A stretch of DNA of 64,000 bases from Naegleria gruberi (taxonomy: Eukaryota), in assembly GCA_000004985.1 (NCBI GenBank), contig GG738915.1; one strand, 5' to 3'. The notes beneath the pieces are model-generated. The model did not search any database and was not told where the DNA came from. It was given only the letters and a program-made list of their open reading frames with translations. Shown here one piece after another: positions 321 through 54,652 of the stretch; positions within the stretch are counted from its first letter, which is position 1; each line of letters starts with the position of its first letter. The translations under genes and the position numbers were made by a program.

Positions 321-2622
321 ATGCACTTTTCAATTCCTCTACCAGCTGATGGGAAATCTTCAACGAGTCATCCAAGAGTATTCTTTGGTTCGTGCAGAGA
401 TACTGTCATTGTGTACATTCCTGGGTGGTATTTGCAAATTGTGGACTGTTCCAAAGATCATGAACCTTGGCCTCTGATGAATTTCATAGGTTCAGATACT
501 GTACCCTTCCTGGACAATGAATCAACAAGTGTCATTGATAGAAAATCTGAACAGGATGTTGTTTCACTCTTTTCTGGATCTAGCTCTGGTGGATATATTC
601 TCGATTTGAATAGAGGACTACTTTTCAAGTATGATTTCAATTTTGATAACATGTTAAATTGGCTGGTTAACTTGAAAAAAGAACAGAGTTCAATGTACAA
701 TCCTACCAATATGTATTCAGCTCCGAACATTAGGAAAACCACTATTCAATTTTTACATTTGGCCATCACTCATTTCAAGAATAATATATTTACAGAGAGA
801 ACAATACGAGCCTTTTGTGAACCTTTTCCTGTTAATGGTTGTGACAGTCGTTGTAAACATACTACACTGGTCGACGACGAAGTACTCTTTATGGAATATT
901 TAATTGGAGCAGGATATATGGAGTTGGCTTCAAATATTTCAGCTTCCACCTCATACACTGCCTCCATACTAACCAATTCATCTTCATCCAGTATTGCTGA
1001 TAAGGAATTTTTGAGATATATCCCAATTTCACTATTGGAATGTGGAGAAAATAGCCAATATCTTGATGATTACTCATACGATCAGTCATTTGTAACCACT
1101 AAAATTGGAAATACTATGGGAAACAATATTTTCACAAAAACAGTATGTAGCACTTCAAATATTTGAATTTAAATATTATTTAATATTATTTTGAAATATA
1201 CAGTTCGATTCCATTGTAAGAACCATTCCATATCCAAGAGAAAATACCGAATGCTCACTCGATTTAATCAAACAAGTCAAGTCACAACTAGCCAGTTCAC
1301 CAAAGTTTATTCCACTCGCTGTTTATTTGGCCCACCACAAGAATCACATTCTCACTCCACCAAGTCCCTCCGTAGAAAGACAAAGTAACAATATAAATGG
1401 AAAATATTTTGAGGAGAAGAATACCTACTTTCAAAAGAAGTGGTTCAACAGTATATTTAGCTCTCCAAAAAGTTCAGAAAAAGAGGATGACTCTTACTAT
1501 GAAGACACACCAGAAGACTCGGAATTAGATGCCGAAAAACTTAGAGTAAGACAAACGAAAAAGATTGATTTCTACTCTGAAAAATCCAAAACAGATTTTA
1601 TAGATGTTTTAAGTAACTTTCTACTTGTAAATAGTCAACTAATACCAATTGATTTGCAAGAATATACATCAGCAGGACCAACCAAAGCTACCAGAATGAA
1701 AACCATTTTAGATTACACTAGTTCCCTATTCCAACTTTCACAATATTTATTTACTACCCTCACTCAAATCCTCCATACCTTCCATCAAAAACAACGACAT
1801 TTCAATCAGGGAAAATGTACAGAAGTGTATCCAATGTGGTATTTCCATCTCTTGCAAAAATTACACGTTAGTTTGGAGGAAACAAACTTTCCTTCTCCAT
1901 CTGGATTTTTAGAACATTTTGCCACAGTTGGTGTCCATGTTCTTCCTCTCAATAATCTCATTCAATACATCAATAGGGAGATGTTCATTGTGACTGATAA
2001 TGTTATTCATGAAGTTATGAAAAAGTCACAACAACAAACAAGTGAAAAGGAAAAGAAAGCTTGGTGTTCACTAATGAGATCACTCATTCAAAAGCTCAAA
2101 GACAGAGAAAATAGAGACGTATTCCACTATGAAAGAATGCTCTCCTGCATGTTAAATCAACCAAGCTCTGAAAATACCGTACAAAATATTCTAATTAATT
2201 ATTATCACAGTTTATTAGTTGAACAAATTGACACTGTCAAGATACCCAATCCCAAGAATAGTAATGTCACTCCACTTGATTGTATTCAATTCTTAGAAGA
2301 ATTTAAATTACAGAGAGAAGAAAATCCATCAGAATCTCTATTCACATCCTTCCTTCCACTCTCCTATTATTTACTCTCCATAAAATCCCTCAATGGAACT
2401 CTCCTACCAAAACCAACTCTCCTCCGCATGTCACACATGAATAGTTTTGATTCCAGTGATAGTGATGATAACACAACCAATGAAATTTCATCTCCAAGAA
2501 TGAATACCAATTTTTACTCTCTTGTACAGGGAATAGAGTATTGCTTTGAAGGAGATCAAGATGCCTACATTTACTTTTTGAAGAAAAAGACAGAAAAGGT
2601 ATTGAATACCACCTTTTTTTAG
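321..2622 (+). CDS. Hypothetical protein, two exons (321..1142, 1204..2622); the 5' end may lie upstream of 321
   Basis: ORF 321..1166 and ORF 1327..2622 join through a 61-nt intron (GTATGT at 1143 ... ATATACAG ending at 1203). Exon 2 enters the frame of the 1327 ORF at 1204 (FDSIVRTIPYPREN...AHHKNHILTPP). No recognisable domain; Ser-rich. Confidence 0.45.
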
Positions 2623-20481: not shown

Positions 20482-21699
20482 GTATGGTATATAATAGTTG
20501 AATATTTAAAACAAAACTACTTGATAAAATTAACAACAAGTATGAACCTACTCAAAATTCAATATATCAATATTTGAAAAATTAATGTTCTCTCGGGATC
20601 AACAACACTGATGCCAAATGCCAGCTGTCAAAGTAGTTTTTTTTTCTTCGTCATCTTGATTACTAGCACTCTGCACTCGCCAACTTCAATATTTTGGCCC
20701 TTCGTCTAAAAGCCTATTGGTTTGTTATTGCGTTGACACTTGAAAATTTCACACTCTAGTGGGTTGTCAATAACCCTAATTCGGAAGGCAACTTTTTGGG
20801 AAGATTTGAAATTCCACATCTTAAGGCTATTGCGAATATTAACAATGGACATGGAATTAAACTCCAATACATTATTATTATTGAATGATTACAATTTGTA
20901 ACACATCCTTTGAAAACTTTCCAATAGTTTGAAAATATTGGAAAGTTTTCGAATTGACTTTTCGATGTGTTGATATCAAATAAAGAATGTACATTGAAAC
21001 AAATGAAAAAAAGAGGATGGATGGTCAATGAATGTGTAATCCTTTCTACTGAGATTGAAAACGTGCTCTTCATGGTCGATTTTCGAATAACCTTGATTGT
21101 AATGTTATCCTAAATGGCAAATGGATGAACCATCACATCAAAGATCTGAAGATTTTAAAGCAAGTTGGTGTCTTCGTCAAAATGGGTATTTTACTATTAT
21201 CTTTTTAAAGAATCAACATGTCATGTTTGAAAATGTTGTCATGTGACATTTTGGTGAAGAAAACAATTATTGTACAGTAAATTCTCAAACACCGTTCACA
21301 GTAGGAAAACCACGTCATCTTCTTTAATACTGTAAATTATTATCTTTTCACACTTTACAATAATGCTGCACCAGCCCTACAATCCTTTCGTATAATATTT
21401 GACACACAATCAACAGACCCTATCCAAATCAACTCAGAGCACAAGCCAACTTGGATTTACACTCATTTTATTAGGATCATGCACCGTACTACTTTCGAAT
21501 AGTTTTCTCCTATCAATGAACTTGTTGAGCACATGACTATTACGGATAATTTACTAGTTTCTGTAGAGCACTTATTGTAAAACAGTCATTTTACTGTAGT
21601 GTGGTAATGGTTAGAAAATGACCAAGAAAAGATAATTGGTAGAGTTGAGCACGTTTCGGTGGTGAAATTTTGCATTTTACCTTTTTGGGATGGTGTTCA

Positions 21700-35268: not shown

Positions 35269-36560
35269 ATGAGTGGAAAATCAATTTATTCGGGAGAAAT
35301 TGAGGATGGCTGTTTTCATGGCAAAGGAACCATGATCTATGCCAATCAAGAGAAATATGAAGTGAGTATATTGTTGTTCTACTCATTCATCATAACTATT
35401 ATAACTATTGATTATTAATATAATTTATCTTAATGCTTGTATTGCTTAGGGAGATTGGGTGAAAGGAAAAAAGCATGGTGTAGGAGCCTTTACCTATTCC
35501 GATGGTTCTTATTATGAAGGTAAGGAAATTTCTTCACCATCATCAATGCTTATTATTACATCAAATTATTATATTAAATAGGCGAATGGATAAATGATCA
35601 AATTAATGGAAAAGGAACATTCCTCTACGCCAATGGAAATCGATATGTTGGAGAGTGGGCCGATTCAGTAATTAGTGGACGAGGCGTTCTGTACTATTCC
35701 GATGGTGATCGATATGATGGAGAATTTAAGGAAGGAAGAATGAATGGTGAGGGAATTTATTGTTATGCTGAGGGAGATCGATATGAAGGATCGTTTGTGG
35801 ATGATCAAAGACATGGAAAGGGAATAATGAGTTATGCTGGAGAGAATGGATCAATCTTTGAACGATATGAAGGTAGAGTAGATGAATTCAATTCATGAAA
35901 CTAACCATGTTGATTTTCTAATAAGGCGATTGGGCATTTGGTAAAATGGAAGGCATTGGAAAGTACCTATATAGTGATGGAAGTATTTACGAGGGAGAGT
36001 GGAAAGATGGCAAAATGAATGGACAGGGTCTATATAAATTTCAAAATGGTAATAGATATGAAGGCGAGTTTGTTAATGATCAAAAGCATGGTAAGGGTAT
36101 TCTGAGGTATGCCAATGGAGAGGTCTATGAAGGAAGCTGGAAAACTGATAAGCCACATGGAATGGGTACACTGACCTACTCTCACGGTGACAAGTATGTT
36201 GGAGAATTTGTCAATGCCAAGAAACATGGAAAGGGATCACTGGTCTATAGAAATGGTGACATTTATGATGGAGAGTGGAAGAATGATCATGCCAATGGTT
36301 ATGGGGTTTTGGAGTATGCCAATGGATCGAGCTACGAGGGAAACTTTGTGGATGATAAGAAACATGGTCAGGCAATTGTTAGAAGTTCAGATGGAAGTAT
36401 TTTTGAGGGAACGTACGAGAATGGAAGAAAGGAAGGAGAAGGTGTTTTAACATTGCAAGATGGATCTGTATATAAGGGTGTTTGGAAAGATGGTCTAATT
36501 GTTGGTATGGGTTATTTTATACCTTCAGCTCAATCAATTTGGAGTAGTCCAGATGTGTAG
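35269..36560 (+). CDS. MORN-repeat protein, 4 exons (35269..35361, 35450..35519, 35582..35872, 35926..36560), about 363 aa with ~14 MORN repeats
   Basis: Tandem YxGxWxxGxxHGxG repeats throughout (YEGEWKDGKMNGQGLYKF, YEGEFVNDQKHGKGILRY, ...). Three introns with GTGAGT/GTAAGG/GTAGAG donors and TAG/AAG acceptors, each placed right after a ...YEG codon. Joining the exons restores a continuous MORN array (MSGKSIYSGEIEDGCFHGKGTMIYANQEKYE|GDWVKGKKHGVGAFTYSDGSYYEG|EWINDQINGKGTF...). Confidence 0.7.
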
Positions 36561-48440: not shown

Positions 48441-49790
48441 ATGAAAAAGAAAATGAATCCATTTGCCTTGCTTGATTTCCATTTGCCTCATAGATTTTCC
48501 TTACATGGTACGGAATCAAAGTATTTTGATCAGGTGCATGTTACCAAGGCCAATGATGAACATACTACTCTACAGGCAGTTGTTGGTGGTGATTCACCAA
48601 CTTGTTTAAAAGAAGAACAATCTTTATGTAATACTAATAATAATAATGGCGGAAATTGCTCCCCTTGTAATACTATGACCAATATTAGAAATAATACATT
48701 AAATAATCAAAGTGATGGATGTTGTCTCACTGAAGAAGACTCTGAAATATTGAATTGTTACTACAGTTCATCCATGTTTCTTCATGTGATCGCAAGGCAA
48801 GAGCTTGAACGTTTCTTACAAGATTCATCATCCAATTCCTCAAAGGCCAACACTCTGGAAATGATAGAAATGATGACCTTGTATTATTCCATCAAGGCAA
48901 CTTGTGAACTCCAGATGGGACGAATGGACAAATATGAAATCTCGGGAATGAAGGCAATGGAGAATCTTGTCAAACTTTCAAGTACAAACTTGGCGATTGC
49001 TGGAAGCTACCTTAATATGTGCTTGCTTGAATTGTGGAATGATAGATTTGATATTGCAAAATTGTATTTTGCAAAGGTTATGACCTTCAAACCATACTTT
49101 GAGAATGCATCGGAAGGACAGTATGAGTACAAATTATTGAAAGATGACCTCAATATCTCAGTCAAGTTATTGGAGTATACTCTATTCAATGCTGATGTTA
49201 ACAATCTTCATCATTTATTGTTTGAAAGGTTTCTTGTAAATTTACCAACTCTCTTTTCGTATTATAGAACTGGGCAAGCGCTCATTAATGAATGGAACCA
49301 CATTCTAAAGAATCCTCACCTTATCAATTCATCAAATTGTATGCAAGTTCATATGCTGATATTGACACTCTTGAGGGATTGTAAAAAGTATGAAGAAGAT
49401 ACAAAGGGACGATCAGAAAATCTCACTTTACTGTACGACTTTTTGGAAAGTGGGATAACATTGGCTCTGTTATCCAAATGCTCTGAAAAAACGCCCATGA
49501 TTGAGTATACCATTGAATCAAGTGCAAAGAGAATTGTCAAGTCAATTAAGAATCCAAATTTTGAATCTGCTCCATTTGAAGTGATCATTTATCTTTCATT
49601 TGCTGCAGAGCATCACTTGAAAAGGATTCTACAAGGTGTTTTATCAAGAGACTCGATGAATTATGTTGAAATGCTTCGAGATACACTCAATGCATACAAA
49701 TCTCTTCAATCCAGATTTAAAATAGCCAATTTTTACTATTATGGGGGAGTATTCCAACAAGTGGATTTATACTTCTGTAATAAAGCGTAA
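48441..49790 (+). CDS. Paralog of the Zn2Cys6 regulator family, with a degenerate or absent zinc cluster
   Basis: 449-aa ORF colinear with 50007..51719 (MNPFALLDFHL vs MNPFLVLDFHL; LYYSIKATCELQMGRMDKYEISGMKAMENL vs LYYSIKATCECQMGQIDKAELSAKQAKEYL; KNPHLINSSNCMQVHMLILTLLRDCKKYEED vs KNPHLIDSTNCVQVNTLLQNLLRECKRYEQN). Cys spacing in the N-terminal region does not fit CX2CX6C. The start is probably Met 48453. Confidence 0.5.
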   Translation: MKKKMNPFALLDFHLPHRFSLHGTESKYFDQVHVTKANDEHTTLQAVVGGDSPTCLKEEQSLCNTNNNNGGNCSPCNTMTNIRNNTLNNQSDGCCLTEEDSEILNCYYSSSMFLHVIARQELERFLQDSSSNSSKANTLEMIEMMTLYYSIKATCELQMGRMDKYEISGMKAMENLVKLSSTNLAIAGSYLNMCLLELWNDRFDIAKLYFAKVMTFKPYFENASEGQYEYKLLKDDLNISVKLLEYTLFNADVNNLHHLLFERFLVNLPTLFSYYRTGQALINEWNHILKNPHLINSSNCMQVHMLILTLLRDCKKYEEDTKGRSENLTLLYDFLESGITLALLSKCSEKTPMIEYTIESSAKRIVKSIKNPNFESAPFEVIIYLSFAAEHHLKRILQGVLSRDSMNYVEMLRDTLNAYKSLQSRFKIANFYYYGGVFQQVDLYFCNKA

Positions 49791-50006
49791 ATTATCCAAT
49801 TGACTACAGTTCCTTAATCTCTATAATAAAAATATAACCATACAACCAATTGAGTTAAGTGTTTTGTTTTGGGGCGAAGGACTTTCCTCCAATTAAAATT
49901 TCATCCTGAAACCTGTACAACCGATCCCTTATCACCATTGATCAATGATTATTTCCAAGATTGAAACTCTTTCATCTGCCTTAATCAAAAGTGTGGAGGC
50001 TTTTAA

Positions 50007-51719
50007 ATGGTTTGTTTACCTTCCTTATTAAATCAACCATTTGAAAAAAAATCAATGAATCCCTTCCTAGTGCTCGATTTCCACTTATCGGATGAGAATT
50101 TGTTCTTCAATCCTAACAATTTTCAGCCGGTAACCTTTGCAAATAACTGTACTTTTATTCCACAATTACAACCTCTTCAGACTCAGCCTCAATATATTAC
50201 TTCAACAACAGCATCAATAACTAATCACAATACTTCTATTAATCAACATCCTAATAATATCCAACAACAACAACTCCATCACAACAAGAATGGTTTCAAC
50301 CAACAACAAATACCTTCCTCATTCCAGAACGACTCTGTCAGTAGTTCCACTTCCTGCGATCCGGCCACTACACATGGAGGAAGCCGAAGCAACCACAACT
50401 CTGTTACAACAAATCAAACTGCTCTTGAGAATGTAGCAGAAAATGGCACATCTCAACCTTCAGAAGAGAACGCTAACTGTGATAATGCAGATGGAACCAT
50501 TGCTCCAATATCTTGTGATGCATGTCGTTCTAACCATCGTCGATGTGATCGTATCAGACCTTCATGTCAAGCTTGTAAAATAAGAGGAATCCCATGTAAC
50601 TATAGTATGAACTTTAAGAGAAGAGCCAAGTTTATTAACAATAACAGATTGAAGGATGAAGATGTTGCAATTTTGGATGTTTATTACACAGAGTCTGGAT
50701 ATCACATGGTTTCAAGGACAGAGTTGGAACAATTCTTGTTAGAATCTTATAAGTGTAACGGCTCTTACACAACACAAGATATGAAAGAGATGATAGCCCT
50801 GTATTATTCAATTAAAGCAACCTGTGAGTGTCAAATGGGTCAAATTGACAAGGCAGAGTTATCCGCAAAGCAGGCAAAGGAGTATCTTTCCAAAGTATTT
50901 GATTGCTATACCAGTATGAAGGTTGCTGGAACCTATCTCAACATGTGCTTTTATGAACTGTGGTTTGAGAGGTTACACACAGCCAAGTTTTACTTTCAAA
51001 CTCTACTCTTCTTTAAAGAAGCTCTTGAGAACTCAAAGGAAGAAACAAAGAATTCCATTAGAGAGCATCTAATAATTACAATCACCTACTTGGAGGAGAC
51101 CATATTTAACATTCAGGATAAGAAGAACCTTCATGAGAGAACCTTCGACAGGTTTTTGCTGACACTCCCAACACTCTTCTCCTATTTGAAAACTTCAGAT
51201 TGTATGTTTGGTAGTGACTGGGATTATTATTTGAAGAATCCACACCTAATTGACTCTACGAATTGTGTACAGGTTAATACACTCCTTCAAAATCTATTGA
51301 GAGAATGTAAGAGGTATGAACAGAATAATTTTGGAGGAAATCCAGTTCTGGATTTGTACTATGATGTCATGGAGAGTGGTTGTACATTGGCACTGTTGTC
51401 AAAAACTAAGGAAATGAATTCAATGATGGATTATGTCTTGGAGAGAAGTGCTACTACTATTGTAAATTCGATTAATAACCCTAAATTTGAATCAATGCCT
51501 TTTGAGATTCTTCTCCACATTTCATTTGCTGCAGAGTATCATTTGAAAAAGGTGAGAGAGGGCATATTTATGGGTAGTATGAATAATTGTGATTATATTG
51601 AAATGTTGAGAACTGAATTAAGAGCCTACCAAACCCTACAATCAAGATACAAGATTGCCAAGACTTACTTTTATGGTGGAATATTCAAGAAATTGGATGA
51701 CTATTTCAATAATCAATAA
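50007..51719 (+). CDS. Zn(II)2Cys6 (Gal4-type) binuclear-cluster transcription factor
   Basis: CDACRSNHRRCDRIRPSCQACKIRGIPCNY matches C-x2-C-x6-C-x6-C-x2-C-x6-C followed by basic residues. The long C-terminal region is shared with the upstream paralog. The start is probably Met 50055 (MNPFLVLDFHL). Confidence 0.65.
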   Translation: MVCLPSLLNQPFEKKSMNPFLVLDFHLSDENLFFNPNNFQPVTFANNCTFIPQLQPLQTQPQYITSTTASITNHNTSINQHPNNIQQQQLHHNKNGFNQQQIPSSFQNDSVSSSTSCDPATTHGGSRSNHNSVTTNQTALENVAENGTSQPSEENANCDNADGTIAPISCDACRSNHRRCDRIRPSCQACKIRGIPCNYSMNFKRRAKFINNNRLKDEDVAILDVYYTESGYHMVSRTELEQFLLESYKCNGSYTTQDMKEMIALYYSIKATCECQMGQIDKAELSAKQAKEYLSKVFDCYTSMKVAGTYLNMCFYELWFERLHTAKFYFQTLLFFKEALENSKEETKNSIREHLIITITYLEETIFNIQDKKNLHERTFDRFLLTLPTLFSYLKTSDCMFGSDWDYYLKNPHLIDSTNCVQVNTLLQNLLRECKRYEQNNFGGNPVLDLYYDVMESGCTLALLSKTKEMNSMMDYVLERSATTIVNSINNPKFESMPFEILLHISFAAEYHLKKVREGIFMGSMNNCDYIEMLRTELRAYQTLQSRYKIAKTYFYGGIFKKLDDYFNNQ

Positions 51720-51913
51720 ATAATCCTTACTATTATACTATTGTATCATGAGGATAAAGCACAAGTGTTCGAATATACAATCCAATTCAAGTTAGGCCGT
51801 ACGATTTGGTTTCCCTTCCTGTTCCGCCCAAAATCAGATGTGCACAATTATAAATTCCATTCCCTTATTACTCCTTCCAGCTCATCAAAAGGAATAAAAT
51901 CATCTTAAAGAAA

Positions 51914-54122
51914 ATGCACAAGGAAGAGGCAGTGTTTGATATTTGTGAAGATAATGTGAGCACACCAACCAGTCCTAAAGCTATTCAGCTTATTGAAACG
52001 TCACCCTCATCAACAGAAGAAGTAAAACAATCCATACCAGTAAAAACAGCCGCGCAATCAAATGAACCAGAGGAAGTTTTAAAAGATCCAAATGGACCTA
52101 CTTTACACTTTTATGATCATTTTCTGATCTTTAAGTGTTTTGGATTTTGGACATGGATATTCATTATTTTGGGAATCTTGGGCTCTATGGGTAATGGTGT
52201 TGTGGCGTTAATATTTCAATTCATATTCGGTGATTTGATCAATATTTTCCAACCTGTGAATGGAGTTATGCCATCAGCTACAATAATGAGAAATGCCATC
52301 TCAGATGTTTGTCTCAAATTTACAGGAGTTGCTATTGGAAGTATGGCTTCCAGTTTCGTATCTCAATTTTTCAATGGGTGGGCCAGTGAAAGAATTGGAA
52401 TCTCTCTCAGACAGGCTTATTTCAATGAATTAACAAGACAAGAGGTTGCATTCTTTGATATTAAGAAAACAGGTGCCCTGACAATTGCACTCAGTGAAGA
52501 TGTTGGAAAGATCCAAGAAGCTTGGACCAGAAAAATTTCTGGTGTCATGCAACACACTAGTACCATTCTCATTGGGTTGATTCTGGCCTTTGTCAGTAGT
52601 TGGCAAATGACTCTCGTTACCATTTCAACCACTCCACTCATGATTTTGATTGGTGTGGTTATGGGAAAATTGACAGAAAAGATTAGTTTTAAATCAGGTG
52701 AAACTATCGCAAAGAGTGCCTCAAAGGCAACCGAAGTTGTCTCCTCATTCAAAACAGGTAAGTTGAAATTCCAATATTTGTTCTAAAAAATTCAACCTAG
52801 TTAAAAGTATGGGGTGCGAAGAAAAGGAACAAGCTCAATTCGCTAACATTTTGAAAAAGCTTCATTTGTATGGCATATTAAAAGCTGGCGCACAAGGTGC
52901 TAGTTTGGGGTCTGAAAGCTTCATCATTTGGGGTACCTGTTCATTGGCCTTTTGGTATGCGTAAGTAGCAGTGTAATTTTAAACCTCAATTTAACAATCA
53001 ACAGAGGTAACCTGGTTGTAGATGGAACTATTGTCATTGGAGATTTGGTAAAAGTTTTTGGTTTGTTAATTTTCAGGTAAGTTAAATTTCCAATATTTGT
53101 ACCTTAGACCTATTCTATAAGTACAGTGTATTTTCAATGGCATTTGTTTTTGAAATGTTACCTGACATTTTCAAGGCCTTGAGCTGTCACAGAGCTCTAC
53201 TTATGGTTATGAAAAGAAAACCAGCCATTCCATTTAAGGGTGGAAAGAGTTTGAGCGATAATGTAGGATTGGTTGAATTTAAAAATGTCAAATTTTCATA
53301 TCCATCTCGTCCAAATGTTACTATTCTTCAAGATTTTACACTTAATGTAAAGACAGGTCAATCAATTGCTATGGTTGGTCCGTCAGGATCAGGAAAATCG
53401 ACCATTGTTGGCTTGTTAGAAAGATTCTATGATCCAGAAGAAGGAGTTGTTTCAATTGACGGTGTAGATATTAAGGAAATTGATCCAAAGTGGTTGCACA
53501 AAAATGGTAAGTATCTTAAAAAATTATTCCTTATCAAGTATTTAAAACTATAGTTGGTATTGTTACACAAGAACCAGTATTGTTCGCTTGTACCATTAAG
53601 GAAAATATTGCTTATGCAGTTGGTTTGGAAAATGTAACTGATAAAGATATTGAACAAGCTGCCAAAGCTGCCAATTGTCATAATTTCATTTTGGATCTTC
53701 CTAATGGATACAATACATTACTCGGTGAAAAAGGTGTTTCTCTTTCAGGTGGCCAAAAGCAACGTGTTGCCATTGCAAGAGCTCTCTTACAAAATCCTAA
53801 AATTTTGCTTTTGGACGAAGCAACTTCAGCTCTCGACACTGAATCTGAAGCTCTTGTTCAAGCTGCTTTGGAAATGTTAATGAAAGGAAGAACCTCCATC
53901 TCCATAGCTCACAGACTTTCAACAGTTCAAAATTGTGATGTCATTTACGTTCTCGTTAAAGGAGACATCAAAGAATCAGGCACTCACAAGGAATTGATTG
54001 GCATTGAGAATGGTATTTACAGAAAATTAGCAGAAAAACAAATGGGAATTGATCAATCTTACGAATCATCCAATGAAAATGTTGGTGATACTTCTTCTCC
54101 AAGTGATTTAAATCAACAATAA
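51914..54122 (+). CDS. ABC transporter, ABCB-type half transporter (TMD-NBD), 5 exons (51914..52757, 52801..52960, 53005..53076, 53127..53506, 53554..54122)
   Basis: N-terminal TM helices, then an NBD with Walker [11 protein letters not shown]-loop VTQEPVLF, signature [15 protein letters not shown], Walker [14 protein letters not shown]-loop IAHRL. Introns of 43, 44, 50 and 47 nt, all GTAAGT donors. The spliced product is continuous (...FKTG|[34 protein letters not shown]...AFWYA|[24 protein letters not shown]|[11 protein letters not shown]...WLHKN|[11 protein letters not shown]...). Confidence 0.75.
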
Positions 54123-54652
54123 ATTATTTCATCTTCTCCTATCATTAATTAATTAAATATTCAATAATGTCCTAATTATTTTCCAATATTTATGATTTTC
54201 CATCATGACTATTCGAACAAAAATCAGTTCCACACCCGAACAGCCACAATCATTACAGTACCATCTCATCATCATGGCTTGAAATCTTCATCACAATCAA
54301 TTGAGCCTGTCCAATAATTTGTAATACTACCTGTGGTGCTTGCTTTTTCTTGATCACAGTTTTAAAAGATTTTAGCGGGAAGAAATCTCAAGCCCTCAAC
54401 TCGCAAAAGGCAACTTGTTTTTTTTTTCAAGTTTAAAAAAAAAGCAGAGAAAAGGCGCAAAGTTTTTTTAGTATCGAATTTATTATTAGTCGCCCACGTA
54501 GTAATTATCATCAAATATATATTGATAGTATTAAACAACAACAACAGTAACAAGAGTAATAGTAACAAGAAAGTGTATTGTTGCGAACATTTAATTGTAT
54601 TTTAGAAAAGAGGAATTAAAAATCGGAATATTTGTAAATAAGAATTATAAAA

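What the first reader, a model, noticed from the sequence alone, without database searches (positions are those of the whole stretch)
52758..53126. Two introns in the ABC transporter gene with near-identical 5' halves (introner-like)
Intron 1 (52758..52800: gtaagttgaaattccaatatttgttctaaaaaattcaacctag) and intron 3 (53077..53126: gtaagttaaatttccaatatttgtaccttagacctattctataagtacag) share 22 of their first 24 nt (gtaagttRaaWttccaatatttgt). This is well beyond the splice-donor consensus. Such similarity between different introns of one gene suggests recent intron gain by duplication or transposition (introner-like elements), or a shared intronic regulatory/structural element. The introns in between (gtaagtagcagtgtaattttaaacc…; gtaagtatcttaaaaaattattcc…) do not share it.
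Basis: seen in the sequence. Interest (0 to 1): 0.55.

Follow-up and report, generated by a model that had tools for sequence, protein, structure and literature searches.

The report
Young intron copied from neighbouring intron
In an ABC-transporter gene of the amoeba Naegleria gruberi, one tiny intron is absent from every relative examined and starts with a near-exact copy of the first 24 bases of an older intron 319 bases downstream, so it is most likely a recent intron gain whose source can be named, which is uncommon but belongs to a known kind.

Summary
Introns 52758..52800 and 53077..53126 share 22 of their first 24 nt, or 25/27 counting the exonic CAG. Beyond GTAAGT they share 16/18, whereas unrelated donor-site pairs reach at most 13/18 (binomial about 1e-7).

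The window is Naegleria gruberi, and the gene is the annotated ABCB half-transporter NAEGRDRAFT_74542. My four-intron model gives exactly the annotated protein.

- **Intron 3 is old.** Its position is shared with both N. lovaniensis co-orthologs, whose intron sequences there are unrelated.
- **Intron 1 is lineage-specific.** Its position is absent from all eight homologous genes whose DNA I could read.
- **The copy is partial.** Similarity stops abruptly after nt 24, and the 3' halves are unrelated.
- **There is a repeat at the insertion site.** The last 11 nt of intron 1 (ATTCAACCTAG) resemble the last 11 nt of exon 1 (ATTCAAAACAG).

Intron 1 is therefore most likely a recent gain that copied intron 3's 5' end. 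I favour a DNA break-repair origin over reverse splicing, but this is inferred.

No evidence supports a dispersed introner family. However, the N. gruberi genome outside this window could not be searched.

A second, full-length same-gene intron duplicate turned up in the Willaertia magna homolog. This is a new member of a known kind (same-gene intron duplication), of moderate interest.

The parts
51914..54122 (+). ABCB half-transporter gene NAEGRDRAFT_74542. It has five exons (51914-52757, 52801-52960, 53005-53076, 53127-53506, 53554-54122) and four introns, and encodes 674 aa.
   Evidence: The spliced translation is identical to the annotated protein P0129 / EFC37687.1. Pfam finds ABC_membrane and ABC_tran.
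52758..52800 (+). Intron 1 (43 nt, phase 1, within the Val codon of ...SSFKT|VKSMG...). This is the lineage-specific, presumably newly gained intron.
   Evidence: The position is uninterrupted in L001, L002, L003, L004, L005 and L006. The Acrasis and ENA homologs are intronless. The intron is present and identical in a second N. gruberi-like haplotype, L087.
52755..52781 (+). Copied segment in intron 1: exonic CAG plus the first 24 intron nt (CAG|GTAAGTTGAAATTCCAATATTTGT).
   Evidence: the repeat finder family D2 scores 25/27. The pattern search finds only these two sites.
52782..52800 (+). The 3' part of intron 1 (TCTAAAAAATTCAACCTAG). It is unrelated to intron 3. Its last 11 nt, ATTCAACCTAG, resemble the exon-1 end ATTCAAAACAG (52747-52757), which is a candidate target-site duplication.
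   Evidence: The 3' halves are not similar (shuffle P=0.65). No significant local source was found for this part (P=0.17). The exon-end versus intron-end match of 8/11 is the highest of 26 introns, and 0.8% of cross-pairs reach 8.
52747..52757 (+). Last 11 nt of exon 1 (ATTCAAAACAG). This is the proto-splice site and the left copy of the candidate direct repeat.
   Evidence: The intron-less homologs read tttaaaacaGTGaaaag (L002) and tttaaaactgtgaaaag (L001) here.
53077..53126 (+). Intron 3 (50 nt, phase 2, ...GLLIF|S...). This is the older intron and the presumed source of the copied 5' segment.
   Evidence: An intron at the same codon and phase is present in N. lovaniensis P0001 (L001 11162-11229) and P0004 (L002), with unrelated sequence.
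53074..53100 (+). Source segment: exonic CAG plus the first 24 nt of intron 3 (CAG|GTAAGTTAAATTTCCAATATTTGT).
52961..53004 (+). Intron 2 (44 nt, phase 2). It does not share the motif.
   Evidence: The position is shared with N. lovaniensis.
53507..53553 (+). Intron 4 (47 nt, phase 1). It does not share the motif.
   Evidence: The position is shared with N. lovaniensis.

Best explanation
Intron 1 (52758..52800) is a recently gained spliceosomal intron of the N. gruberi ABCB gene NAEGRDRAFT_74542. Its 5' splice site and the next 18 nt were copied from the pre-existing intron 3 of the same gene, 319 bp downstream.

Shown:
- Both are true introns.
- Their 5' 24 nt are 92% identical, far beyond chance.
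- Intron 3's position is ancestral, being shared with N. lovaniensis.
- Intron 1's position occurs in no other homolog examined.
- The flanking exons are not duplicated.
- Similarity ends abruptly after nt 24.

Inferred (favoured sub-mechanism):
- A DNA break occurred in exon 1 at ...TTCAAAACAG^TTAAAAG.
- It was repaired with a templated insertion. The broken end ...CAG annealed by microhomology to the ...TTTTCAG just before intron 3.
- About 24 nt of that intron's start were copied.
- The end then dissociated and was rejoined with extra filler and a fill-in duplicate of the break-adjacent ATTCAA..AG.
- The copied GTAAGT supplies the donor site, and the AG of the duplicated exon end supplies the acceptor site. 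The 43-nt insert is therefore spliced out exactly and the protein is unchanged.

The alternative route to the same outcome is reverse splicing of excised intron 3 into its own transcript, followed by reverse transcription, recombination and later remodelling of the 3' half.
For: - Confirmed repeat and its rarity.
- Gene model equals the published annotation.
- Intron maps: N. lovaniensis P0001 and P0004 carry introns at the positions of window introns 2, 3 and 4 but not 1.
- N. fowleri P0009 and P0025, N. lovaniensis P0059 and Willaertia P0087 lack an intron at both the intron-1 and intron-3 positions.
- Acrasis P0068 and ENA P0021 are intronless.
- The DNA at the intron-1 site is continuous in all six loci with introns elsewhere.
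- The tree places the window gene with P0002, P0001 and P0004 in a 100%-bootstrap clade, with outgroups lacking intron 1. One gain is therefore more parsimonious than a gain plus a loss.
- The orthologous intron-3 sequences in N. lovaniensis share only GTAAGT with the N. gruberi intron 3, so the similarity between introns 1 and 3 post-dates that split.
- Evidence for a partial copy: the 3' halves are no more similar than shuffles (P=0.65).
- A CAG microhomology lies at the junction.
- Direct repeat of the exon end at the intron's 3' end: 8/11, the top of 26 introns, with a cross-null of 0.8%. This is the footprint described for staggered-break neointrons in Daphnia (PMC4202315).
- The flanking exons show no similarity beyond CAG (read directly), and the protein aligns without repeats or gaps. 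This is therefore not a segmental duplication.
Against: - The N. gruberi paralog P0002 (74-76% identical) could not be examined at the DNA level. The clade's internal branching is unresolved (63% versus 36% bootstrap). A loss in the N. lovaniensis lineage is therefore not formally excluded.
- The direct-repeat evidence is one 11-nt comparison with 3 mismatches (P about 0.008). It is more diverged than the 24-mer.
- No source was found for the middle of the insert.
- No presence/absence polymorphism was seen, because the second haplotype also carries intron 1.
- The direction of copying (3 to 1) rests on positional age only.
- No transcript data were available to me to confirm splicing. That rests on reading-frame conservation and the public annotation.
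Confidence: 0.72

Rival explanations
1. Reverse splicing (classical intron transposition). The excised intron 3 reverse-spliced into the ACAG|TT site of its own transcript. The product was reverse-transcribed and recombined into the gene. The 3' half was later remodelled by indels and substitutions. This shares the main conclusion, that intron 1 is a copy of intron 3, and differs only in route.
For: - The insertion is exact at a proto-splice site (CAG|), with no change to the coding sequence.
- The source is an intron of the same gene, as expected if the lariat acts on its own transcript (PMC3443670).
- The Willaertia magna homolog holds a pair of introns similar at both ends, which fits whole-intron copying.
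Against: - Only the 5' 24 nt are shared, with 2 differences. The remaining 19 to 26 nt are no more similar than shuffles. Uniform decay of a full copy does not predict this sharp boundary.
- Reverse splicing does not predict the exon-end direct repeat.
Confidence: 0.25
2. Introner-like element. Both introns carry a short mobile or repeated intron-generating element that is dispersed across the N. gruberi genome.
For: - The 12-mer TTTCCAATATTT recurs once more in the gene's 3' UTR at 54180-54191 (shuffle P=0.02).
- A third intron in the window (1143..1203) has TTCAAATATTTG at the same offset, +12.
- The genome outside the window was not searchable.
Against: - There is no further match to the 24-mer with up to 3 mismatches in 64 kb.
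- There is none in the other loci.
- There is none in the metagenome collection.
- Intron 3 occupies an ancestral position, so it is not a fresh insertion.
- The shared part is only 24 nt, whereas described introners are whole, longer introns in tens to thousands of copies (PMC3609843).
- The 1143 match (16/24) lies within the chance tail, because an unrelated cross-species pair also reaches 16.
- No paper in the library links introners to Naegleria.
Confidence: 0.06
3. A conserved functional element or gene conversion. Intron 1 arose independently. Its 5' end either converged on, or was overwritten by, intron 3's sequence because the 24-mer serves a purpose such as a splicing-enhancer or protein-binding site.
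For: - In the N. lovaniensis paralog pair, the 5' ends of homologous introns stay identical for 11 to 16 nt while the rest diverges. Intron 5' regions may therefore be under some constraint.
- The 24-mers are unchanged in a haplotype 0.9% diverged.
Against: - The motif is absent from the orthologous N. lovaniensis intron 3 and from all 22 other family introns.
- There is no RNA family hit and no folding signal.
- Convergence to 16/18 has a binomial probability of about 1e-7.
- Conversion would need flanking homology, and there is none beyond CAG GTAAGT.
Confidence: 0.07
4. Chance resemblance of two AT-rich intron starts.
For: The introns are 74% A+T and share the GTAAGT consensus.
Against: The pair scores 16/18 beyond the consensus, against an unrelated maximum of 13/18 in 6,441 pairs. 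The binomial probability is 1e-7 to 6e-7. None of 100 shuffles of the window gives any match.
Confidence: 0.01

Closest known systems
Same-gene intron duplications (SGD) described in fungi (Collemare, van der Burgt and de Wit 2013, PMC3609843). The same paper notes three SGD introns in C. elegans and near-identical introns in Oikopleura.
   Same: - These are near-identical introns found only within one gene, in low copy number.
- They are not part of a high-copy family.
- About half of the fungal cases lack duplicated flanking exons and were attributed to transposition within the same transcript.
- The present pair also lacks duplicated exons.
   Different: - Here only the 5' half (24 nt) is copied, whereas SGDs were detected as near-identical whole introns.
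- The host is a heterolobosean amoeba (Discoba). I found no such report for that group.
- The introns are much shorter (43 and 50 nt).
Neointrons formed during repair of staggered double-strand breaks in Daphnia pulex (Li et al. 2014, PMC4202315; reviewed in PMC3443670)
   Same: - These are short, AT-rich, lineage-specific introns inserted without disturbing the coding sequence.
[quoted passage not shown] Here the repeat is ATTCAAAACAG / ATTCAACCTAG.
   Different: - In the passages I read, no Daphnia insert is traced to another intron of the same gene. Here 24 of the 32 non-duplicated nt are traceable to a neighbouring intron.
- The repeat here is imperfect (8/11).
- No presence/absence polymorphism was observed here.
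Intron transposition by reverse splicing (reviewed in PMC3443670, which counts 14 unambiguous events, in Mycosphaerella and Oikopleura)
   Same: The new intron is homologous to another intron, lies at a proto-splice site, and the source may be the same transcript.
   Different: That model predicts a whole-intron copy. Here the 3' half is unrelated. The Willaertia pair noted in passing fits the model better.
Introners and introner-like elements (Micromonas, Aureococcus, Dothideomycete fungi; described in PMC3609843)
   Same: These are introns that resemble each other in sequence and mark recent gains.
   Different: - Those families have hundreds to thousands of copies in unrelated genes.
- Their introns are longer than regular introns and have stable predicted structures.
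- Here there are two copies in one gene, 24 nt shared, and no structure signal.

Membership tests
Same-gene intron duplication (SGD) | Two introns of one gene are significantly similar in sequence beyond the splice-site consensus. | tested here: met
   22/24 overall and 16/18 beyond GTAAGT, against an unrelated maximum of 13/18. Binomial probability about 1e-7.
Same-gene intron duplication (SGD) | The similarity spans the whole intron (near-identical introns). | tested here: not met
   The 3' halves are no more similar than shuffles (P=0.65). Only the 5' 24 nt plus the exonic CAG are shared. The Willaertia pair (L004) does meet this feature.
Same-gene intron duplication (SGD) | There are no similar copies in unrelated genes (otherwise the pair would be a low-copy intron or an introner-like element). 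| tested here: inconclusive
   No copy was found in the 64-kb window, 89 loci or the metagenomes. The remainder of the roughly 41-Mb N. gruberi genome (size from memory) could not be searched.
Recent intron gain | The intron position is absent in orthologs and outgroups. | tested here: met
   The position is absent in 8 homologous genes from 5 sources. The N. gruberi paralog P0002 was not testable.
Introner / introner-like element family | Many (tens to thousands of) near-identical introns lie in unrelated genes of one genome. | not testable with these tools
Within the window there are only the two copies.
Introner / introner-like element family | The copies sit at lineage-specific (newly gained) positions. 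| tested here: not met
   Intron 3's position is shared with N. lovaniensis P0001 and P0004. Only intron 1 is lineage-specific.
Introner / introner-like element family | The introns are longer than regular introns and have stable predicted secondary structure (fungal ILEs, PMC3609843). | tested here: not met
   Introns 1 and 3 are 43 and 50 nt, the same size class as introns 2 and 4. Folding z-scores are -0.5 and -1.3.
Break-repair neointron (Daphnia type) | [quoted passage not shown] | tested here: inconclusive
   ATTCAAAACAG versus ATTCAACCTAG matches 8/11. This is the highest of 26 introns, and 0.8% of cross-pairs reach it. It is suggestive, but it is a single imperfect repeat.
Segmental (exon plus intron) duplication | The flanking exon sequence is duplicated together with the intron. 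| tested here: not met
   The flanks share only CAG upstream, and about 5/16 matches on either side (read). The protein alignment shows no internal repeat.
ABCB half-transporter (host gene) | One ABC_membrane transmembrane domain is followed by one ABC_tran ATPase domain. | tested here: met
   PF00664 covers residues 84-363 and PF00005 covers 426-577. The best hits are Naegleria ABC B-family proteins.

The most novel reading that the evidence does not exclude
Heterolobosean amoebae (Naegleria, Willaertia) may have an ongoing local process that seeds new introns from existing introns of the same gene, within tens to hundreds of bases.

Three observations from this one gene family would fit such a process:
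- the partial copy in N. gruberi;
- the full-length duplicate 17 nt away in Willaertia magna;
- five different intron positions packed into about ten codons (AFWYGGGLVADM) across the family, including a 6-nt micro-exon in N. lovaniensis.

If this were general, these culturable, intron-poor organisms would offer a system in which intron birth with an identifiable source could be studied experimentally.
Probability: 0.2. Interest if true: 0.7.

Novelty: new member of a known kind. Interest (0 to 1): 0.4.

Why it matters
How new spliceosomal introns arise is still argued over. Cases in which both the new intron and its sequence source can be named are few. A 2012 review counted 14 transposition-type events and 5 break-repair events (PMC3443670).

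This case gives a dated event: it post-dates the split between N. gruberi and N. lovaniensis. The source is a named intron 319 bp away in the same gene. The event lies in Discoba, a deep eukaryotic lineage for which I found no comparable report.

The copy is truncated and there is a possible target-site repeat. Both features point to DNA repair rather than reverse splicing, and this can be tested on the available Naegleria genomes.

On its own it is one small event, not a new principle.

Tried and rejected
1. **Genome-wide search for the motif.** The metagenome scan for GTAAGTTNAANTTCCAATATTTGT gave 0 hits. A protein-based metagenome scan returned only matches of 30% identity or less, with no Naegleria-like relative.
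2. **Intron map of the N. gruberi paralog P0002.** It is not on record. A search for open-reading-frame fragments of it in ENA assemblies found none.
3. **RNA element hypothesis.** There is no Rfam hit at E<=1. Folding energies of the introns and their contexts are ordinary (z from -0.2 to -1.3).
4. **Homology of the 3' halves of introns 1 and 3.** Rejected, shuffle P=0.65.
5. **Local template for intron 1's 3' 19 nt.** The best matches were a 10-mer on the opposite strand of exon 4 and a 9-mer in intron 4. Neither is significant (P=0.17).
6. **A positional 'TTCNAATATTTG' or AATATT motif in N. gruberi introns.** Intron 1143..1203 has it at the same offset. However, its score of 16/24 is matched by an unrelated cross-species pair, and by eye AATATT also occurs in several of the other AT-rich family introns listed. 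This was dropped as evidence.
7. **Origin of intron 3's 24-mer from the start of exon 4** (ATTTTCAATGGCATTTGT). It did not emerge as the best local match and was dropped.
8. **The N. fowleri pair of similar donor regions** (L003 minus strand, 10942 and 8664). These lie in tandemly duplicated P450 genes with 90-99% identity over hundreds of nt. This is ordinary gene duplication, not intron copying.
9. **Provenance of the second haplotype.** A literature search for PRJEB11402, to identify the ENA sample, found nothing.
Full report
**1. What is there**

The window is AT-rich (about 35% G+C), gene-dense and intron-poor. It holds only 14 GTAAGT sites in 64 kb. Three intron-less ORFs translate to proteins identical to annotated Naegleria gruberi proteins on a 260,018-bp scaffold. 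The window is therefore N. gruberi.

The finding lies in a gene with five exons:
- 51914-52757
- 52801-52960
- 53005-53076
- 53127-53506
- 53554-54122

The four introns are 43, 44, 50 and 47 nt long, in phases 1, 2, 2 and 1. The spliced product is 674 aa. It is identical to the public annotation EFC37687.1 / NAEGRDRAFT_74542.

**2.

Intron 1 (52758..52800) and intron 3 (53077..53126) agree at 22 of their first 24 nt. Counting the exonic CAG they agree at 25 of 27. The degenerate 24-mer, with up to 3 mismatches allowed, is found nowhere else in the window and in no shuffle.

As an empirical null I took all 114 GTAAGT/GTATGT sites in the window and six related loci, giving 6,441 pairs. At positions +7..+24 the mean identity is 5.1/18 and unrelated pairs never exceed 13/18. 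This pair scores 16/18 (binomial 1.4e-7 to 5.8e-7).

Only two other pairs stand out in that comparison:
- One lies in tandemly duplicated P450 genes of N. fowleri and reflects whole-gene duplication.
- The other is discussed in section 6.

The similarity ends sharply. The remaining 19 and 26 nt of the two introns are no more alike than shuffled sequences (P=0.65). The flanking exons share nothing beyond CAG, and the protein has no internal repeat. This is not a segmental duplication.

**3. Which intron is old and which is new**

I derived exon-intron maps for every homolog whose DNA I could fetch, by threading the annotated protein through the locus.

| Gene | Intron at window intron 1 site | Intron at window intron 3 site | Other notes |
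|---|---|---|---|
| N. lovaniensis P0001 and P0004 | No | Yes | 91% identical to each other; also have introns at the window intron 2 and 4 positions, plus one extra intron |
| N. fowleri P0009 and P0025 | No | No | Introns elsewhere |
| N. lovaniensis P0059 | No | No | Introns elsewhere |
| Willaertia magna P0087 | No | No | Five introns elsewhere |
| Acrasis kona P0068 | No | No | Intronless |
| Environmental gene P0021 | No | No | Intronless |

P0001 and P0004 sit in a 100%-bootstrap clade with the window gene and the N. gruberi paralog P0002. In both, the DNA at the intron-1 site reads straight through (…tttaaaacagtgaaaagtatg…).

Intron 3's position therefore predates the gruberi-lovaniensis split. 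Intron 1's position is known only from this gene. One gain is more parsimonious than a gain followed by a loss.

Sequence gives an independent argument. At the shared intron-3 position, the N. gruberi and N. lovaniensis introns share only GTAAGT. Even the two N. lovaniensis paralogs differ greatly there. A 92%-identical 24-mer shared by introns 1 and 3 inside N. gruberi must therefore be much younger than that split.

An ENA metagenome contig (L087) is 99.1% identical to window 49238..53678. It carries intron 1 unchanged and both 24-mers intact, with single changes only in the 3' parts of introns 2 and 3. Intron 1 is thus present in two slightly diverged haplotypes or strains.

**4. How it most likely arose**

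Intron 1 was built by copying the start of intron 3. That much I hold with fair confidence (about 0.7). The route is inferred, and I favour a DNA-level break-repair origin for three reasons.

- **The copy is truncated.** It comprises 24 of intron 3's 50 nt and has a sharp boundary.
- **There is microhomology at the junction.** The copy starts within a 3-nt microhomology (…AAAACAG at the target, …TTTTCAG before intron 3). This is what one expects if a broken 3' end annealed nearby and was extended.
- **There is an exon-end repeat.** The last 11 nt of intron 1 (ATTCAACCTAG) repeat the last 11 nt of exon 1 (ATTCAAAACAG) at 8/11. This is the best such match among 26 introns, and only 0.8% of mismatched exon/intron pairs reach it.

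A direct repeat of the adjacent exon's terminal bases at the far end of a new intron is the footprint reported for neointrons formed at staggered breaks in Daphnia (4-12 bp; PMC4202315).

In this reading the insert was GTAAGTT…TCTAAAAA plus a fill-in copy of ATTCAAAACAG. The copied GTAAGT became the donor and the AG of the duplicated exon end became the acceptor. This explains why a 43-nt insertion is removed precisely.

The classical alternative is reverse splicing of intron 3 into its own transcript, followed by reverse transcription and recombination (PMC3443670). It explains the exact placement at a proto-splice site. It does not explain the truncated homology or the repeat. I give it about 0.25.

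**5. What it is not, or not shown to be**

- **Introner family.** Nothing supports a dispersed introner family. There is no further copy in the window, in the fetched loci (other than the near-identical N. gruberi contig L087) or in the metagenome collection. One copy is at an ancestral position, and the shared segment is short and unstructured.
- **Weak hints of extra copies.** A 12-mer (TTTCCAATATTT) recurs in the 3' UTR (P=0.02). Another intron (1143..1203) has TTCAAATATTTG at the same offset. Both are within what AT-rich introns give by chance.
- **Functional RNA.** No RNA family matches.

**6. Comparison with what is known**

The closest described class is the 'same gene duplications' of introns catalogued in fungi. 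That set has 82 members. Half lack duplicated exons and were ascribed to transposition within one transcript (PMC3609843).

The present case differs in three ways. The copy is partial, the introns are very short, and the host lineage is Discoba. I found no paper linking Naegleria with introners, and none of the 15 listed of the 29 papers mentioning both Naegleria and intron gain has recent gain in Naegleria as its subject. I therefore class it as a new member of a known kind.

While mapping homologs I met a second, cleaner case. In the Willaertia magna gene, introns L004:4088-4176 (89 nt) and L004:4194-4242 (49 nt) are separated by a 17-nt exon. They match at both ends, and the shorter one aligns to the longer at all 49 positions once three gaps are allowed. 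Neither position occurs in any other homolog.

Across this family, five different intron positions fall within about ten codons around AFWYGGGLVADM. They include a 6-nt micro-exon (GTATGC) in both N. lovaniensis genes.

These observations raise the possibility that local intron copying is recurrent in Heterolobosea. That would be more interesting than the single event, but I could not test it.

**7. Verdict**

- The 'recent gain by duplication' interpretation is supported.
- The 'introner-like' label is unsupported.
- The mechanism is probably break repair templated from the neighbouring intron. This is inferred, not shown.
- Interest is moderate (0.4).

Noticed in passing
L004:4088-4176 and L004:4194-4242 (Willaertia magna, GCA_041937235.1 contig JBEGDK010000065.1, ABCB gene P0087): Two neighbouring introns (89 and 49 nt) are separated by a 17-nt exon. 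They are near-identical at both ends, and the shorter equals the longer minus about 40 internal nt. Neither position occurs in any other homolog, and the flanking exons are not duplicated. This is a full-length same-gene intron duplication in the same gene family in another genus.
   Followed up: partly
L001:10963-11089 and L002:10942-11073 (N. lovaniensis P0001 and P0004): A 6-nt micro-exon (GTATGC, completing the Trp codon, encoding Tyr and starting the Ala codon of the conserved AFWYAG motif) is flanked by two introns. The public model of P0004 also skips the following 72-nt exon, which is present in the DNA, and so appears mis-annotated.
   Followed up: partly
Window 52950-53010, and the homologous region of L001-L006: Five distinct intron positions fall within about ten codons (AFWYGGGLVADM) across the Naegleria and Willaertia paralogs. 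They are phase 2 in the W codon, phase 0 between W and Y, phase 2 in the A/G codon, phase 1 after WYGG, and phase 0 after ADM. This looks like a local hot spot of intron turnover.
   Followed up: no
Window 1143-1203 (+): A 61-nt intron (GTATGTAGCACTTCAAATATTTGAATTT...ATACAG) joins ORFs 321..1166 and 1327..2622. It carries TTCAAATATTTG at the same offset (+12) as TTCCAATATTTG in introns 1 and 3. It matches intron 1 at 16/24, which is within the chance tail.
   Followed up: partly
Window 54180-54191 (+), 3' UTR of the ABC gene: A third exact copy of the 12-mer TTTCCAATATTT lies 58 nt after the stop codon (shuffle P=0.02). It sits in an imperfect inverted repeat with 54154-54168.
   Followed up: partly
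Window 20912-20950: An inverted repeat of about 15 nt per arm with a short loop (GAAAACTTTCCAATAgtttgaaaaTATTGGAAAGTTTTC) contains the same TTCCAATA core.
   Followed up: no
L087 (ENA ERZ929261, contig k127_290713), equal to window 49238-53678: A metagenome assembly holds an N. gruberi-like haplotype 99.1% identical to the window (35 mismatches, 2 gaps). Differences are concentrated upstream of the ABC gene, in the stretch 49238..50006 (14) and in the ORF 50007..51719 (18, including a 3-nt and a 1-nt deletion). Exons 1 to 3 of the ABC gene are identical.
   Followed up: partly
Window 35450-36500 (+): Coding tandem repeats with a period of about 69/138 nt (YEGEF..G.KHGKG, MORN-like) lie in ORF 35946..36560 and upstream of it. 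They are the strongest local direct repeats in the window.
   Followed up: no
L003:8431-11925 (-) (N. fowleri): Two tandem cytochrome P450 genes are 90-99% identical over hundreds of nt, introns included. This is a recent tandem gene duplication.
   Followed up: no
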